Assembly (NCBI GenBank): GCA_963727485.1 | Contig: CAVSGM010000001.1 | Coordinates: forward strand, 672,001 to 736,000 | Reading direction: 5' to 3' | DNA: 64,000 bases | DNA from: an uncultured delta proteobacterium | Lineage (GTDB): Bacteria > Myxococcota > Myxococcia > SLRQ01 | Shown: in pieces, positions 48,918 to 59,432 of the stretch | How positions within the stretch are numbered: the stretch's first letter is position 1 | Layout of the letters: the number at the start of each line of letters is the position of its first letter | The notes under the pieces: model-generated | The model's input: only the letters and a program-made list of their open reading frames with translations | The model's database searches: none | What the model was told of the DNA's origin: nothing | Made by a program: the position numbers and the translations under genes

Positions 48918-49500
48918 CCGGCGCCGGCTGCCGGCGGGCGTGAGCGCGGCATGATACCGGCGCCGAGTGGCGCAGGGCCGGCAGCCGGAGAACGGATCCG
49001 CGTCGCTGGGCGCCGGCATCATGCAGCCGGCCCGCCCGTGCCGGGTCGCCGGCGAGGTCCGCCGGATCGGGATCCGCCGGCGGAACGCGACGCGCGGAGC
49101 GTGTCCCGACACCGTATGGGCCGGCGCCGGCTGCCGGCGGGCGTGAACCCGGCGTGATGCCGGCGCCGAGTGGCGCAGGGCCGGCAGCCGGAGAACGGAT
49201 CCGCGTCGCTGGGCGCCGGCATCATGCAGCCGGCCCGCCCGTGCCGGGTCGCCGGCGAGGTCCGCCGGATCGAGGTCCGCCGGCGGAACGCGACGCGCGG
49301 AGCGTGTCCCGACACCGTATGGGCCGGCGCCGGCTGCCGGCGGGCGTGAACGCGGCATGATACCGGCGCCGAGTGGCGCAGGGCCGGCAGCCGGAGAACG
49401 GATCCGCGTCGCTGGGCGCCGGCATCATGCAGCCGGCCCGCCCGTGCCGGGTCGCCGGCGAGGTCCGCCGGATCGAGGTCCGCCGGATCGAGATCCGCCG
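48918..49500. repeat. Intergenic tandem array of about 2.9 x 203-bp structured units
   Basis: Units start at 48918, 49121 and 49324; units 1 and 2 differ at 6 positions; each holds a 25-bp imperfect inverted repeat. Confidence 0.95.
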
Positions 49501-49516
49501 CGCCGCCCAACCAAGA

Positions 49517-56519: not shown

Positions 56520-57182
56520 GTGGCCTACGTGCTCGACATCCGGATCGGTGAGGACGGCAAAGACGGCGAGGCGGTGGCGACGGCGCTCGCCGACGGCCTC
56601 GCCGAGCACGGCACCGTGGCGCCGGACGACACCGGCTTCTCCTTCGTCACCGGGGGCACCCGCCTCCGGGTGGTGCGCACCCGGGACGAGGCCGGAGAGG
56701 TCGACGGCGTCGACGTGGAGATCCCCTACGGCGCGGTGGAGGTCGAGGTGGCCGAGGCCCTCGACTGGATCCTCGACGTCACCGCCGACCGGGGCGACCG
56801 GGTCTTCGACCCCCAGCTCGGGCGTGGGGTCCACGCCGGGGAGACCGGGGCGGTCCTCGCCTCCTTCGTCGCCGCCTCGAGCTACGCGGTGAACTACGCC
56901 GGGCAGGTGGAGGACGCCCGGGCCGGGGTGGCGAGCGTCGCCGAGCCCGGGCGCTCCCGGACCCAGGTCAAGGTCCTGGGCGGGGTGGCGGTCCTCATCG
57001 TGGCCCTCTGGCTCCTCTTCCAGTCCTGCGTGGTCGGGCCCATGACCCGGGCGCTCTCACCCTCGGCGGCCGACGGCACCCTGGATGGCGGGCCGCCTCC
57101 GGGGTGGATGGCGGCGCACCCCACCGTCCTCTCCCCCGGCTCGGTCAAGGTCCGCGCGGCCGACCCGGACGGCGGCCGGTAA
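56520..57182 (+). CDS. Hypothetical membrane-anchored protein
   Basis: GC3-biased frame; VFDPQLG motif; one TM segment; TATAAT 6 nt upstream of the GTG. Confidence 0.65.
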   Translation: MAYVLDIRIGEDGKDGEAVATALADGLAEHGTVAPDDTGFSFVTGGTRLRVVRTRDEAGEVDGVDVEIPYGAVEVEVAEALDWILDVTADRGDRVFDPQLGRGVHAGETGAVLASFVAASSYAVNYAGQVEDARAGVASVAEPGRSRTQVKVLGGVAVLIVALWLLFQSCVVGPMTRALSPSAADGTLDGGPPPGWMAAHPTVLSPGSVKVRAADPDGGR

Positions 57183-57345
57183 TCGGGTGCCGGGGCGGGC
57201 GGGGCCCGGCGGCGTCGCGCCCGAAGAGGGCGGACCGGAGGAGGGCCTCGGCGAGGACCCGGGGGGACACGAGGTAGCGTCCCTCCCGCACCGCCCTGGC
57301 CAGGGCGGGGTGGACTCGGACGCGGGACGCGGCTGGGTTGGCCAT
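57145..57345 (-). CDS. flgM: Minimal FlgM-like anti-sigma28 factor (66 aa)
   Basis: GGAGGAGG before the ATG; LARAVREGRYLVSPRVLAEALL matches the FlgM C-terminal pattern; directly downstream of fliA. Confidence 0.65.
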   Translation of the reverse strand: MANPAASRVRVHPALARAVREGRYLVSPRVLAEALLRSALFGRDAAGPRPPRHPITGRRPGRPRGP

Positions 57346-57352
57346 GCCTCCT

Positions 57353-57379
57353 CCATCGGAAGGCCGGGCCGGGCCTTTA
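57353..57379 (-). promoter_or_regulatory. Sigma28-type promoter for the flgM-like gene
   Basis: TAAA-N15-TCCGATGG versus consensus TAAA-N15-GCCGATAA. Confidence 0.7.
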
Positions 57380-57391
57380 GCCGCGGGGGGC

Positions 57392-58111
57392 TCAGGCGGC
57401 GGTCCGCCCGGCCTCCTCGGCCGCGTCGCCGGCGAGGCGGTCCCGGAGCGCCCGGAGGGCGGCGGTGTGGATCTGGCAGACCCGGGACTCGGTGACCCCG
57501 AGGAGCTCCCCAATCTCCCGGAGGCGCAGCTCTTCCAGGTAGTAGAGCGAGAGCACCAGCCGGGGCCGCTCGGCGAGGCCCTCGAGGGCGGCGGCGACCT
57601 GGCCCCGCACCTCCTCGGCGAGGAGGCGGTCGTCGGCGCCGGCGTCGGGGCTGGCGAGGGCCCGGGCGACCCGGCTGCCGGTCCCCTCGTCCATCCCCAG
57701 GTCGTCGAGGGAGACGGTGCGCAGGGACTGGGCGGCGGCGACCCGCCCGTGGAGGGTGCCCAGGTCGATGCCCAGGGCGCCGGCGACCTCCTCGGCCTCG
57801 GGGGTCCGGCCCAGGCGGTGGCCGAGGCTCCGGGCGGTCTCGTCGACCTCCCGGCGGAGGCGGCGGGCGCCCCGGCTCGAGGGGGCCAGGGCCCGCAGCG
57901 TGTCGAGCATGGCCCCGCGCACCCGGGGGCGGGCGAAGTCGGCGAAGCTCACCCCCCGGTGGGGGTCGTAGCGGCCGGCGGCCTCGACCAGGCCGAGCCG
58001 GCCGGCGCTGACCAGCTCGTCGAGGTCCGCCGGCGGGGGGAGACGGGCGGCGAGGCTGCGGGCCATCGCCTCGACCATGGGGAGCTGGGCCACGAGATCC
58101 GGTGCGTGCAT
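57392..58111 (-). CDS. fliA: FliA/WhiG family sigma28 factor
   Basis: DELVSAGRLGLVEAAGRYDP, RVRGAMLDTLR, VSLD, LYYLEELRLREIGELLGVTESRVCQIH; ATG 58111 preceded by GGAGGT. Confidence 0.92.
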   Translation of the reverse strand: MHAPDLVAQLPMVEAMARSLAARLPPPADLDELVSAGRLGLVEAAGRYDPHRGVSFADFARPRVRGAMLDTLRALAPSSRGARRLRREVDETARSLGHRLGRTPEAEEVAGALGIDLGTLHGRVAAAQSLRTVSLDDLGMDEGTGSRVARALASPDAGADDRLLAEEVRGQVAAALEGLAERPRLVLSLYYLEELRLREIGELLGVTESRVCQIHTAALRALRDRLAGDAAEEAGRTAA

Positions 58112-58138
58112 GACGACCTCCATGGGTCGTCTGGGATC

Positions 58139-58153
58139 TCAAGAGGCGTGCCA
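58139..58153 (-). promoter_or_regulatory. Putative sigma54 promoter of fliA
   Basis: TGGCACG-CCTC-TTGA, one mismatch to TGGCACG-N4-TTGC. Confidence 0.55.
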
Positions 58154-58289
58154 GGGCCGCGGCGCTGACAGACTGCCCGGATTCCGGGGGGTTGGGGACG
58201 AGGCCGGGGCGCCGGGGGGTCACGCCGGCGAGGTCATCGGTGACTCGGGGGGTCGGTGGCGACCCGGCCCGGCGGCACCCGGTCGCCCC

Positions 58290-59432
58290 CTACGCCGCGT
58301 CGAGGGCCTGGGCCAGGTCGGCCTGCAGATCCTCGAGGGCCTCGATGCCCACCGAGAGGCGCACCAGCCCGTCGCTGATCCCGAGCCGCGCCCGCTGCTC
58401 CGCGGGCACCGAGGCGTGGGTCATGATCGCCGGGTGCTCGATGAGGCTCTCGACCCCGCCGAGGCTCTCGGCCAGGGCGAAGACCTTGCAGGCCGAGAGG
58501 AAGCGCCGGCTCGACTCGAGGCCACCGGCGAGCCGGGCGGTGATCATGCCGCCGAAGCCGCGCATCTGCCGCTTCGCCACCTCGTGCTGGGGGTGGCTCT
58601 CGAGCCCCGGGTAGATGACCGCCTCGACCTTGGGGTGCGCGGCGAGCCAGCCGGCGAGGTGCCCGGCGTTCTCCAGGTGGCGCTGCATCCGCACGTGGAG
58701 GGTCTTGAGGCCGCGGAGCACCAGGAAGCTGTCCATGGGGCTGGGGACCGCGCCCACCGAGTTCTGGATGAAGGCCAGCCGGTCGCGCAGCTCGGCGCTG
58801 CTCGTGACCAGCGCCCCGCCGACCACGTCCGAGTGGCCGTTGAGGTACTTGGTGGTGGAGTGGACCACGATGTCCGCCCCGTGCTCCAGGGGCCGCTGGA
58901 TGTAGGGGGTCATGAAGGTGTTGTCCACGACCATCAGGGCCCCGTGGGCCTTCGCCGCCTTCGCCACCGCCTCGAGGTCGACGATCTTGAGCAGGGGGTT
59001 GGTCGGCGTCTCCACCCACACCAGCTTCGTCTTGTCGGTGAACGCCGCCTCCAGGGCCGCGGGGTCGGTGAGGTCGGCGAAGGTGAAGTCGATGCCGTGG
59101 CGGCGCCAGACCTTGTCGAAGAGGCGGAAGGTGCCCCCGTAGACGTCGTCCATGCACACCACGTGGTCGCCGGCGTCGAGCAGGTGCATCACCGCGTCGG
59201 TGGTGGCGCAGCCGCTGGAGAACGCCAGCCCGTGGGCCCCGCCCTCCAGCGCCGCGATGCACCCCTCGAGGGCGAAGCGGGTGGGGTTCTGGGTCCGCGA
59301 GTACTCGAAGCCCTGGTGCTCCCCGGGGGACGCCTGCACGTAGGTGCTGGTGAGGTAGACCGGGGTCATGATGGCGCCGGTGGTCGGGTCGGGGGACTGG
59401 CCGGCGTGGATGGCCTTGGTGTCGAACTTCAT
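58290..59432 (-). CDS. Cystathionine gamma-lyase/synthase
   Basis: YSRTQNPTR, ETPTNP, DNTF, HSTTKYLNGHSD, AESLGGVESL. Confidence 0.93.
   Translation of the reverse strand: MKFDTKAIHAGQSPDPTTGAIMTPVYLTSTYVQASPGEHQGFEYSRTQNPTRFALEGCIAALEGGAHGLAFSSGCATTDAVMHLLDAGDHVVCMDDVYGGTFRLFDKVWRRHGIDFTFADLTDPAALEAAFTDKTKLVWVETPTNPLLKIVDLEAVAKAAKAHGALMVVDNTFMTPYIQRPLEHGADIVVHSTTKYLNGHSDVVGGALVTSSAELRDRLAFIQNSVGAVPSPMDSFLVLRGLKTLHVRMQRHLENAGHLAGWLAAHPKVEAVIYPGLESHPQHEVAKRQMRGFGGMITARLAGGLESSRRFLSACKVFALAESLGGVESLIEHPAIMTHASVPAEQRARLGISDGLVRLSVGIEALEDLQADLAQALDAA

What the first reader, a model, noticed from the sequence alone, without database searches (positions are those of the whole stretch)
57145..58153. 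Stand-alone sigma54 -> sigma28 (FliA) -> mini-FlgM circuit with no flagellar genes nearby
Seen, in about 1 kb on the minus strand: a sigma54-like promoter (TGGCACG-N4-TTGA), an intact FliA/WhiG sigma, a correctly spaced sigma28 promoter (TAAA-N15-TCCGATGG), and a 66-aa ORF with a strong RBS. The ORF track reports that small gene only inside a longer frame. It carries the FlgM sigma-binding pattern (LARAVREGRYLVSPRVLAEALL) almost at its N-terminus. The neighbours are CGL and a hypothetical gene. Known: FlgM binds sigma28 through its C-terminal half and is inactivated by export through the flagellar T3SS using its N-terminal region; model myxobacteria are non-flagellated. Inference: this is a negative-feedback sigma/anti-sigma switch whose anti-sigma lacks the export region, so it may be repurposed for a non-flagellar regulon released by another mechanism such as proteolysis.
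Basis: partly seen in the sequence, partly recalled or inferred. Interest (0 to 1): 0.8.

Follow-up and report, generated by a model that had tools for sequence, protein, structure and literature searches.

The report
Flagellum-free, self-braking sigma-28 cassette
A likely myxobacterial relative, with no flagellum-building genes found in its 93%-complete genome, carries a 1-kb cassette of a flagellar-type sigma factor followed by a shortened FlgM-like gene; the same layout recurs in at least 20 other genomes of the phylum and likely works as a self-limiting gene switch that does not need a flagellum.

Summary
In detail: sigma54-type box, intact FliA/WhiG sigma (TIGR02479 above cut-off), sigma28 box, 66-aa ORF. 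The ORF is a divergent FlgM C-terminal domain. It is below the Pfam cut-off (12.6 vs 25 bits) but is the best FlgM-like segment of 74,536 in the genome, and 6 of 7 hydrophobic contacts of the Pseudomonas complex are kept. No flagellar structural genes were found.

The same sigma-then-short-FlgM layout occurs in at least 21 of 401 phylum genomes (9 families): 8 without flagellin or true FliG, 13 with FliG. 17 of 21 have a sigma54 box. In 14 of 21 the start codon sits 6-9 nt after the -10 box (predicted leaderless mRNA), against 0 of 26 full-length flgM. These sigmas are not one clade (AU p=3.6e-7).

Binding, start sites, reset mechanism and regulon are untested; the regulon signal is weak. Flagellum-free FliA-FlgM is known in Legionella oakridgensis, and this scan noted similar pairs on other DNA (an actinobacterium, Ignavibacteria). 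Verdict: new variant of a known kind.

The parts
58139..58153 (-). Predicted sigma54 -24/-12 promoter (TGGCACG-N4-TTGA); start site would be near 58127
   Evidence: Sequence; 7 such sites genome-wide; motif upstream of 17 of 21 cassette sigmas, 0.6 expected; rpoN and 30 GAFTGA-motif activators in the genome
58117..58121 (-). Shine-Dalgarno GGAGG for the sigma gene, 5 nt before ATG 58111
   Evidence: Sequence; database copy and close relative are both called at 239 aa
57392..58111 (-). FliA/WhiG-family sigma factor, 239 aa, regions 2, 3 and 4
   Evidence: TIGR02479 207.7 bits vs cut-off 189.6; Pfam r2, r3, r4; best PDB hit 9wsf_A E 9e-38
57353..57379 (-). Predicted sigma28 promoter (-35 TAAAG 57379-57375; -10 TCCGATGG 57360-57353); +1 would fall on the A of the ATG at 57345
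   Evidence: numbering of the -10 element taken from PMC12784957
57347..57354 (-). Shine-Dalgarno GGAGGAGG overlapping the -10 box; usable only on a read-through transcript from the sigma gene
   Evidence: Sequence; no terminator-like site found between the genes
57145..57345 (-). 66-aa FlgM-like ORF: 14 residues before the core, two predicted helices (13-21, 28-41), low-confidence Pro/Arg tail
   Evidence: Pfam FlgM E 0.17, 12.6 bits, only family hit; leave-out profile ranks it first of 74,536 segments; homolog P0003 73% identical; model
57238..57303 (-). FlgM sigma-binding core, residues 15-36
   Evidence: Matches PF04316 positions 33-54 of 55; residue mapping to 9wsf_B

Best explanation
This is a stand-alone cassette of an intact FliA-type sigma gene and a shortened FlgM-like gene that likely acts as a flagellum-independent negative-feedback switch: a sigma54 activator would turn on the sigma, the sigma would transcribe a few targets plus the short gene, and the short protein is predicted to bind sigma region 4 and shut it off again. 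Two routes would make the inhibitor. One is read-through from the sigma54 promoter using the Shine-Dalgarno, which sets a threshold. The other is a predicted leaderless mRNA from the sigma28 promoter, which is the feedback arm. With no export region and no flagellar apparatus found, the inhibitor is most likely removed by dilution or proteolysis, giving a pulse of sigma28 activity. The best target candidates are signalling genes. Shown: gene content, motifs, conservation, absence of flagellar hits. Inferred: promoter use, binding, leaderless translation, reset, targets.
For: Sigma passes TIGR02479. It keeps the Pseudomonas promoter contacts R80, R82, D87, R97, R101, S72, S224, Q228 as R63, R65, D70, R80, R84, S55, S209, Q213, and the FlgM-facing L187, I191, L200, L204, L210 as V172, L176, L185, L189, L195 (my mapping). 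The small protein keeps I80, I84, V96, A97, L100, L101 as L15, V19, L31, A32, L35, L36; the Pseudomonas crystal was of FlgM 61-107 only. The core is conserved over the tail in a relative: 33/35 vs 8/20. Codon-position GC is 0.82/0.58/0.93 in the first 45 codons. No flagellin, FliG, rod/hook C-terminal domain or FlgH, and no tblastn hit for the structural genes of four flagellar clusters. The layout recurs in 21 genomes of 9 families, 8 of them without flagellin or true FliG. None of 66 flhG-linked fliA has FlgM within 300 nt downstream. Sigma54 motif in 17 of 21; an NtrC-like activator lies divergently beside it in the 3 genus-g55 genomes checked. Start codon 6-9 nt after the -10 box in 14 of 21 vs 0 of 26 full-length flgM. 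7 of 8 distant short proteins pass the Pfam FlgM cut-off.
Against: This copy is the weakest of the set: 12.6 bits against a cut-off of 25, no TIGR03824 hit, and P0003 has no Pfam hit. The leave-out profile gives only E 0.18 genome-wide. Pseudomonas V77 maps to H12 followed by P13, shortening the first helix, and E104 and R107 map to A39 and G42. Regulon enrichment is weak: 8 sense vs 2 antisense vs 3.4 +/- 1.8 shuffled at >=14 bits, and none at >=12 bits (13 vs 17 vs 12.5). The genome is 93% complete. 13 of 21 carriers have FliG, so a flagellum-linked role there is open. Carriers are related to each other (6 in f6, 4 in f27, 4 in f25). Start codons are inferred and motif patterns were written after seeing some sites.
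Confidence: 0.6

Rival explanations
1. The cassette is an export-proof damper of the flagellar sigma28 system. In flagellated carriers the second sigma and short FlgM cross-talk with flagellar FliA and its promoters; in this genome it persists with little left to regulate.
For: 13 of 21 carriers have FliG. In three families the cassette sigma is sister to, or nested among, that family's flagellar FliA. The promoter consensus also scores >=10 bits upstream of 19 of 26 full-length flgM.
Against: It is retained in 8 genomes of 5 families without flagellin or true FliG, two of them 100% complete. This genome's sigma lies outside the flagellar clade that holds its family's FliA.
Confidence: 0.15
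2. The sigma is functional but this genome's short ORF is a decaying FlgM remnant that no longer binds.
For: Below family cut-offs; H12-P13 replace the conserved hydrophobic position, and the charged C-terminal contacts are missing; only one close homolog cluster was found.
Against: 33 of 35 core residues are identical in a relative whose sigma is 87% identical, while the tail is 8 of 20. The residues encoded by the -35 and -10 boxes keep their spacing in record P0273 while the spacer residues differ.
Confidence: 0.14
3. The short FlgM is released by contact with, or export through, the genome's non-flagellar type III export gate, as proposed for H. pylori FlgM and FlhA.
For: A cluster with FlhA/SctV, FlhB, FliP/Q/R, FliO, FliN and YscJ-like genes lies on contig C5. 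H. pylori FlgM is thought to be relieved through the FlhA cytoplasmic domain (PMC3930126 passages).
Against: Only 14 residues precede the core. The FlhA/SctV-like gene is split over two frames in this assembly. The cluster is on another contig, and its presence in other carriers was not tested.
Confidence: 0.07
4. A conventional flagellar system exists but is missing from the assembly.
For: Completeness 93%, 14 contigs; a genome of the same family has a flagellar cluster.
Against: No trace of any structural gene by four Pfam searches or by tblastn. 3 of 4 other family genomes also lack flagellin. A flagellar cluster would bring its own fliA and full-length flgM, leaving this cassette still to explain.
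Confidence: 0.04

Closest known systems
FliA-FlgM of non-flagellated Legionella oakridgensis (review PMC5655016: passages and section 15 read; primary paper not held)
   Same: FliA and FlgM kept without a flagellar regulon; flgM expression is sigma28-dependent; FlgM represses FliA targets and seems to be degraded rather than exported.
   Different: There the pair is what remains of the flagellar regulon. Here it is an adjacent two-gene cassette under a sigma54-type box with a truncated FlgM and a predicted leaderless feedback mRNA, often present beside an intact flagellar system, and its sigmas are not one clade. I did not see the length or gene order of the Legionella FlgM.
Canonical sigma28-FlgM checkpoint (Pseudomonas aeruginosa 9wsf, PMC12784957: passages and sections 20-21 read; Aquifex 1rp3)
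   Same: Sigma domains and DNA-contact residues; two-helix C-terminal FlgM unit with 6 of 7 hydrophobic contacts; sigma28 box upstream of flgM.
   Different: No flhF/flhG or flagellar neighbours; 21 residues before the conserved Gly vs a median of 72 in full-length FlgM of the same phylum; no flagellar export apparatus found.
Helicobacter pylori FlgM (review PMC3930126, passages read; primary paper not held)
   Same: FlgM thought to be inactivated without secretion. That it is also short at the N-terminus is recalled, from no call.
   Different: H. pylori is flagellated and relief runs through flagellar FlhA.
WhiG2-RsiG switch of Actinomycetota (PMC12871210, abstract and outline only)
   Same: A sigma28 paralog detached from the flagellar cluster and predicted to control other processes.
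   Different: Uses the c-di-GMP-armed anti-sigma RsiG, not a FlgM derivative.

Membership tests
FliA/WhiG (sigma28) family | TIGR02479 score above cut-off; regions 2, 3, 4 | tested here: met
   207.7 vs 189.6 bits; Pfam r2, r3, r4. NF005413 FliA 198.7 is just under its cut-off of 201.
FliA/WhiG (sigma28) family | Residues contacting -35, extended -10 and -10 DNA | tested here: met
   R63, R65, D70, R80, R84, S55, S209, Q213 kept; the H36 and R32 equivalents are not (S19, A15).
Canonical flagellar FliA | Linked to flhF-flhG and a flagellar regulon | tested here: not met
   Neighbours are a Cys/Met PLP enzyme and an unknown gene; no flagellar structural genes found.
FlgM (PF04316 / TIGR03824) | Score above family cut-off | tested here: not met
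   12.6 vs 25 bits, no TIGR03824 hit; 7 of 8 distant cassette copies pass Pfam and none passes TIGR03824.
FlgM (PF04316 / TIGR03824) | C-terminal two-helix sigma-binding unit with conserved hydrophobic face | tested here: met
   Predicted helices 13-21 and 28-41, pLDDT 81-90 over residues 11-40, from an alignment of FlgM-like rows; 6 of 7 hydrophobic contacts kept.
FlgM (PF04316 / TIGR03824) | Structural match to solved FlgM | tested here: inconclusive
   9wsf_B is first of 48,161 chains but at Z 2.8, rmsd 3.5, 42 aligned.
FlgM (PF04316 / TIGR03824) | Long N-terminal region used for flagellar export | tested here: not met
   21 residues before the conserved Gly vs 48-101 in 19 full-length copies. 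That FlgM's export signal lies there is recalled; the general N-terminal signal statement was read in PMC3372961 passages.
FlgM (PF04316 / TIGR03824) | Binds and inhibits sigma28 | not testable with these tools
   Needs an interaction or transcription assay.
Legionella oakridgensis-type flagellum-free FliA-FlgM | fliA and flgM-like gene present, flagellar regulon absent | tested here: met
   within a 93%-complete genome.
Legionella oakridgensis-type flagellum-free FliA-FlgM | Sigma28-dependent flgM expression and regulated FlgM degradation | not testable with these tools
   Only a predicted promoter.
WhiG2-RsiG | RsiG anti-sigma with c-di-GMP motifs | not tested
   No RsiG search was run.

The most novel reading that the evidence does not exclude
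Across this phylum, the flagellar sigma28-FlgM checkpoint has repeatedly been copied out and rebuilt into the same minimal circuit: sigma54 input, duplicate sigma, and an export-less FlgM made from a leaderless feedback mRNA. The result is a portable pulse generator that outlives the flagellum and, in this genome, feeds kinases, a cyclase and a second sigma factor.
Probability: 0.3. Interest if true: 0.72.

Novelty: new variant of a known kind. Interest (0 to 1): 0.5.

Why it matters
It shows a route by which a morphogenetic checkpoint (export-gated FlgM) could become an ordinary feedback switch: drop the export region, place the gene behind a duplicate sigma, and drive it from a promoter that starts at the start codon. 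Recurrence in nine families, with sigmas that do not form one clade, points to repeated assembly of one circuit design. The 1-kb cassette can be rebuilt in a laboratory host, which makes the open question from Legionella oakridgensis, how FlgM is removed without a flagellum, directly testable. Annotation also misses these genes: this copy is under the family cut-off and hidden in a longer frame.

Tried and rejected

A single-chain fold of database record P0273, which holds most of the sigma and the short protein in one frame, gave helices at 224-231 and 239-252 with pLDDT 78-87. Its sigma arrangement was unlike the compact complexes (rmsd 15-16 A to 1rp3 and 9wsf); there is no interface score or control, so it is not used either way. 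A first alignment for it misplaced the FlgM rows and was not used. Foldseek found nothing for the 66-aa model.

Collection scans returned only distant FliAs: 41 metagenome and 11 genome loci, none with a downstream FlgM. The phage collection gave only weak sigma hits, <=33%. No RNA holder was listed, and laid contigs did not span the locus. No sigma70 promoter or intrinsic terminator was found in 56900-58500.

Rejected: the 122-aa TTG frame as the real gene (it overlaps the sigma in another frame and has no Pfam hit); ATG 58123 as the sigma start (no room for a Shine-Dalgarno after the predicted start site); a single origin of the cassette sigmas; the genome's FHIPEP cluster as a flagellar system (no FliG, rod, hook or filament genes).

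Literature: ten full-text searches listed nothing whose title or abstract start describes this cassette; 'leaderless + flgM + sigma28' gave 0 papers. The library lacks most subscription papers. A paper on the Myxococcus xanthus FliA-like SigF is recalled but was not held. No supplements were opened.

Full report
1. The observation. Neither motif is likely chance at its place. The sigma54 pattern occurs 7 times in the genome. The sigma28 site is one of 44 that reach 15.1 bits on a matrix trained on 20 other genomes, seeded with a recalled consensus. One point was missed: the Shine-Dalgarno of the small gene overlaps the -10 box. With the numbering in the Pseudomonas structure paper (PMC12784957, sections 20-21), +1 falls on the A of the ATG.

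2. The sigma. It passes TIGR02479 (207.7 vs 189.6), and its best solved relatives are FliA chains. By my mapping from the printed alignment, the main DNA-contact residues and the region-4 surface that FlgM binds are kept. It is the only FliA-type sigma in the genome. RpoN and 30 proteins with the activator motif are present.

3. The small protein. FlgM is its only Pfam hit, far below cut-off (E 0.17, 12.6 bits). A profile built from 8 distant copies, leaving out this protein and its close homolog, ranks it first among 74,536 six-frame segments of the genome (E 0.18 genome-wide, 16.4 bits on the protein alone). So the genome's best FlgM-like segment lies directly behind its only FliA. A 66-aa homolog (73%) exists, with the same longest-contig length as an 87% sigma homolog. 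Record P0273 shows the two in adjacent order in a relative. Residues 12-46 are 33/35 identical and the tail 8/20. Six of seven hydrophobic contacts of Pseudomonas FlgM are kept; V77 maps to H12-P13, and E104 and R107 are lost. The model has two helices and a low-confidence tail. It works like a FlgM C-terminal domain on this evidence but fails the family cut-off.

4. The genome. It is 5.55 Mb in 14 contigs, 93% complete. There is no flagellin, FliG, rod/hook C-terminal domain or FlgH. ORFs from four flagellar clusters find only paralogs: the export gate, YscJ, ATPase and OmpA-like pieces. The one export-gate cluster (C5, 57.6-66.3 kb) lacks motor, rod and filament genes, and its FlhA/SctV-like gene is split over two frames.

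5. Relatives. Of 401 phylum genomes, 110 had 127 FliA-like places at E<=1e-35. I examined 98 of these plus one. 66 follow flhG and 33 stand alone (three of those near contig ends). A sigma54 motif precedes 25 of 33 against 3 of 66. A short FlgM-like ORF follows within 300 nt in 11 of 33 and 0 of 66. A profile search over the same 401 genomes (148 with a hit; I inspected the top 30 loci and 20 further regions) added 10 more. That gives at least 21 cassette genomes in 9 families, counting this one. Flagellin was sought in 18 and is missing in 8. The same 8 lack true FliG, two having only weak partial hits, while 13 of 21 have it. One of the 8 (G089, 89% complete) has flagellated congeners and may be incomplete. 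A sigma54 motif precedes 17 of 21, 0.6 expected from shuffles; two more have a one-letter variant. In three genomes of one genus an NtrC-like activator lies divergently next to it.

6. The predicted leaderless feedback arm. The first in-frame start codon lies 6-9 nt after the -10 box in 14 of 21 cassettes (6 families) and in 0 of 26 full-length flgM, 19 of which have a site of 10 bits or more. Three f27 copies have only pyrimidine-rich bases there, with no Shine-Dalgarno. Residues before the conserved Gly: median 35 (20-72; 21 here) against 72 (48-101). Caveats: starts are inferred; the matrix was trained on cassette loci; one copy (G114) has no credible site; the full-length group was assigned by lack of an adjacent sigma, and only 4 were confirmed beside a flgK-like gene.

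7. Origin. In a quick tree of 124 sigmas the cassette label needs 9 changes, at least 6 forced by well-supported branches. On 33 of these rows, holding 13 cassette sigmas and 2 close database relatives together is rejected (p-AU 3.6e-7). In families f12, f14 and f15 the cassette sigma groups with that family's flagellar FliA. This genome's sigma groups with six database proteins of mostly unknown context, outside the 25-row flagellar clade that contains its own family's FliA. Repeated duplication fits; gene conversion of an old cassette is not excluded; no bootstrap tree finished.

8. Regulon. In 3,073 upstream regions from my own gene model (80% coverage), sites of 14 bits or more number 8 sense, 2 antisense and 3.4 +/- 1.8 in 20 shuffles (maximum 7); there is no excess at 12 bits. 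Candidates precede a PAS-kinase-receiver hybrid, a histidine kinase, a cyclase, a single receiver, a sigma70-family gene (242 nt away), a DnaJ-TPR protein, a DsrE-like protein and two unknown genes, one of them ahead of a pilin-like gene. This is a lead only.

9. Mechanism. Most likely (0.6) a sigma54-triggered, self-limiting sigma28 switch. Read-through co-produces inhibitor and sets a threshold; free sigma then makes more inhibitor from the leaderless mRNA; turnover rather than export resets it. Promoter use, binding, leaderless translation, proteolysis and targets are all inferred. Rivals: cross-talk with flagellar FliA (0.15), a dead remnant in this genome (0.14), release through the non-flagellar export gate (0.07), missing flagellar genes (0.04).

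10. Novelty. A flagellum-free FliA-FlgM pair with sigma28-dependent flgM and probable degradation is described for Legionella oakridgensis (PMC5655016), and non-exported FlgM for H. pylori (PMC3930126). Two unchecked earlier notes of this scan report related pairs in other phyla; one sent me to the Legionella section. What I did not find in ten searches is the compact sigma54-driven cassette with a truncated FlgM, its predicted leaderless feedback mRNA, its coexistence with intact flagellar systems, and its apparently repeated origin. New variant of a known kind; interest 0.5.

Noticed in passing
G000 C5:57587-66263 (L235): Non-flagellar type III export-gate cluster (FlhA/SctV, FlhB, FliP/Q/R, FliO-like, FliN-like, YscJ-like). 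The FlhA/SctV-like gene is split over two frames in a GC-rich linker (assembly error or real), and FliI queries found no ATPase in the cluster.
   Followed up: partly
Database record P0273: A 277-aa record from a relative reads most of the sigma, the spacer and the short protein in one frame. It is also cut at the N-terminus, so probably a sequencing error, but a real fusion is not excluded.
   Followed up: partly
L204, L206, L214, L196: Cassette sigmas of G299, G064, G112 and G100 are about 190 aa and lack much of region 3.
   Followed up: no
L088 (G150): A short FlgM-like ORF lies upstream, not downstream, of a stand-alone sigma54-preceded fliA.
   Followed up: no
L086, L090, L091, L095, L098, L099, L104, L109, L110, L114, L115, L164, L165, L169, L170: Many stand-alone fliA paralogs have a sigma54 motif but no adjacent FlgM-like gene.
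   Followed up: partly
window 58230-58246 (minus strand): Imperfect inverted repeat about 105-120 nt upstream of the predicted sigma54 start site; a possible activator site, seen by eye only.
   Followed up: no
window 48951-49510: Near-identical ORF translations about 203 nt apart point to a tandem direct repeat between two convergent genes.
   Followed up: no
Representative protein library: 65 of 149 newly listed best hits to the short-FlgM profile are 80 aa or shorter, so short FlgM-domain proteins may be common; some may be fragments and no gene context was available.
   Followed up: no
G000 C3:190583 (L223): A high-scoring sigma28-like site 8 nt before an ATG whose frame stops after 34 codons, beside a glycosyltransferase fragment.
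   Followed up: no
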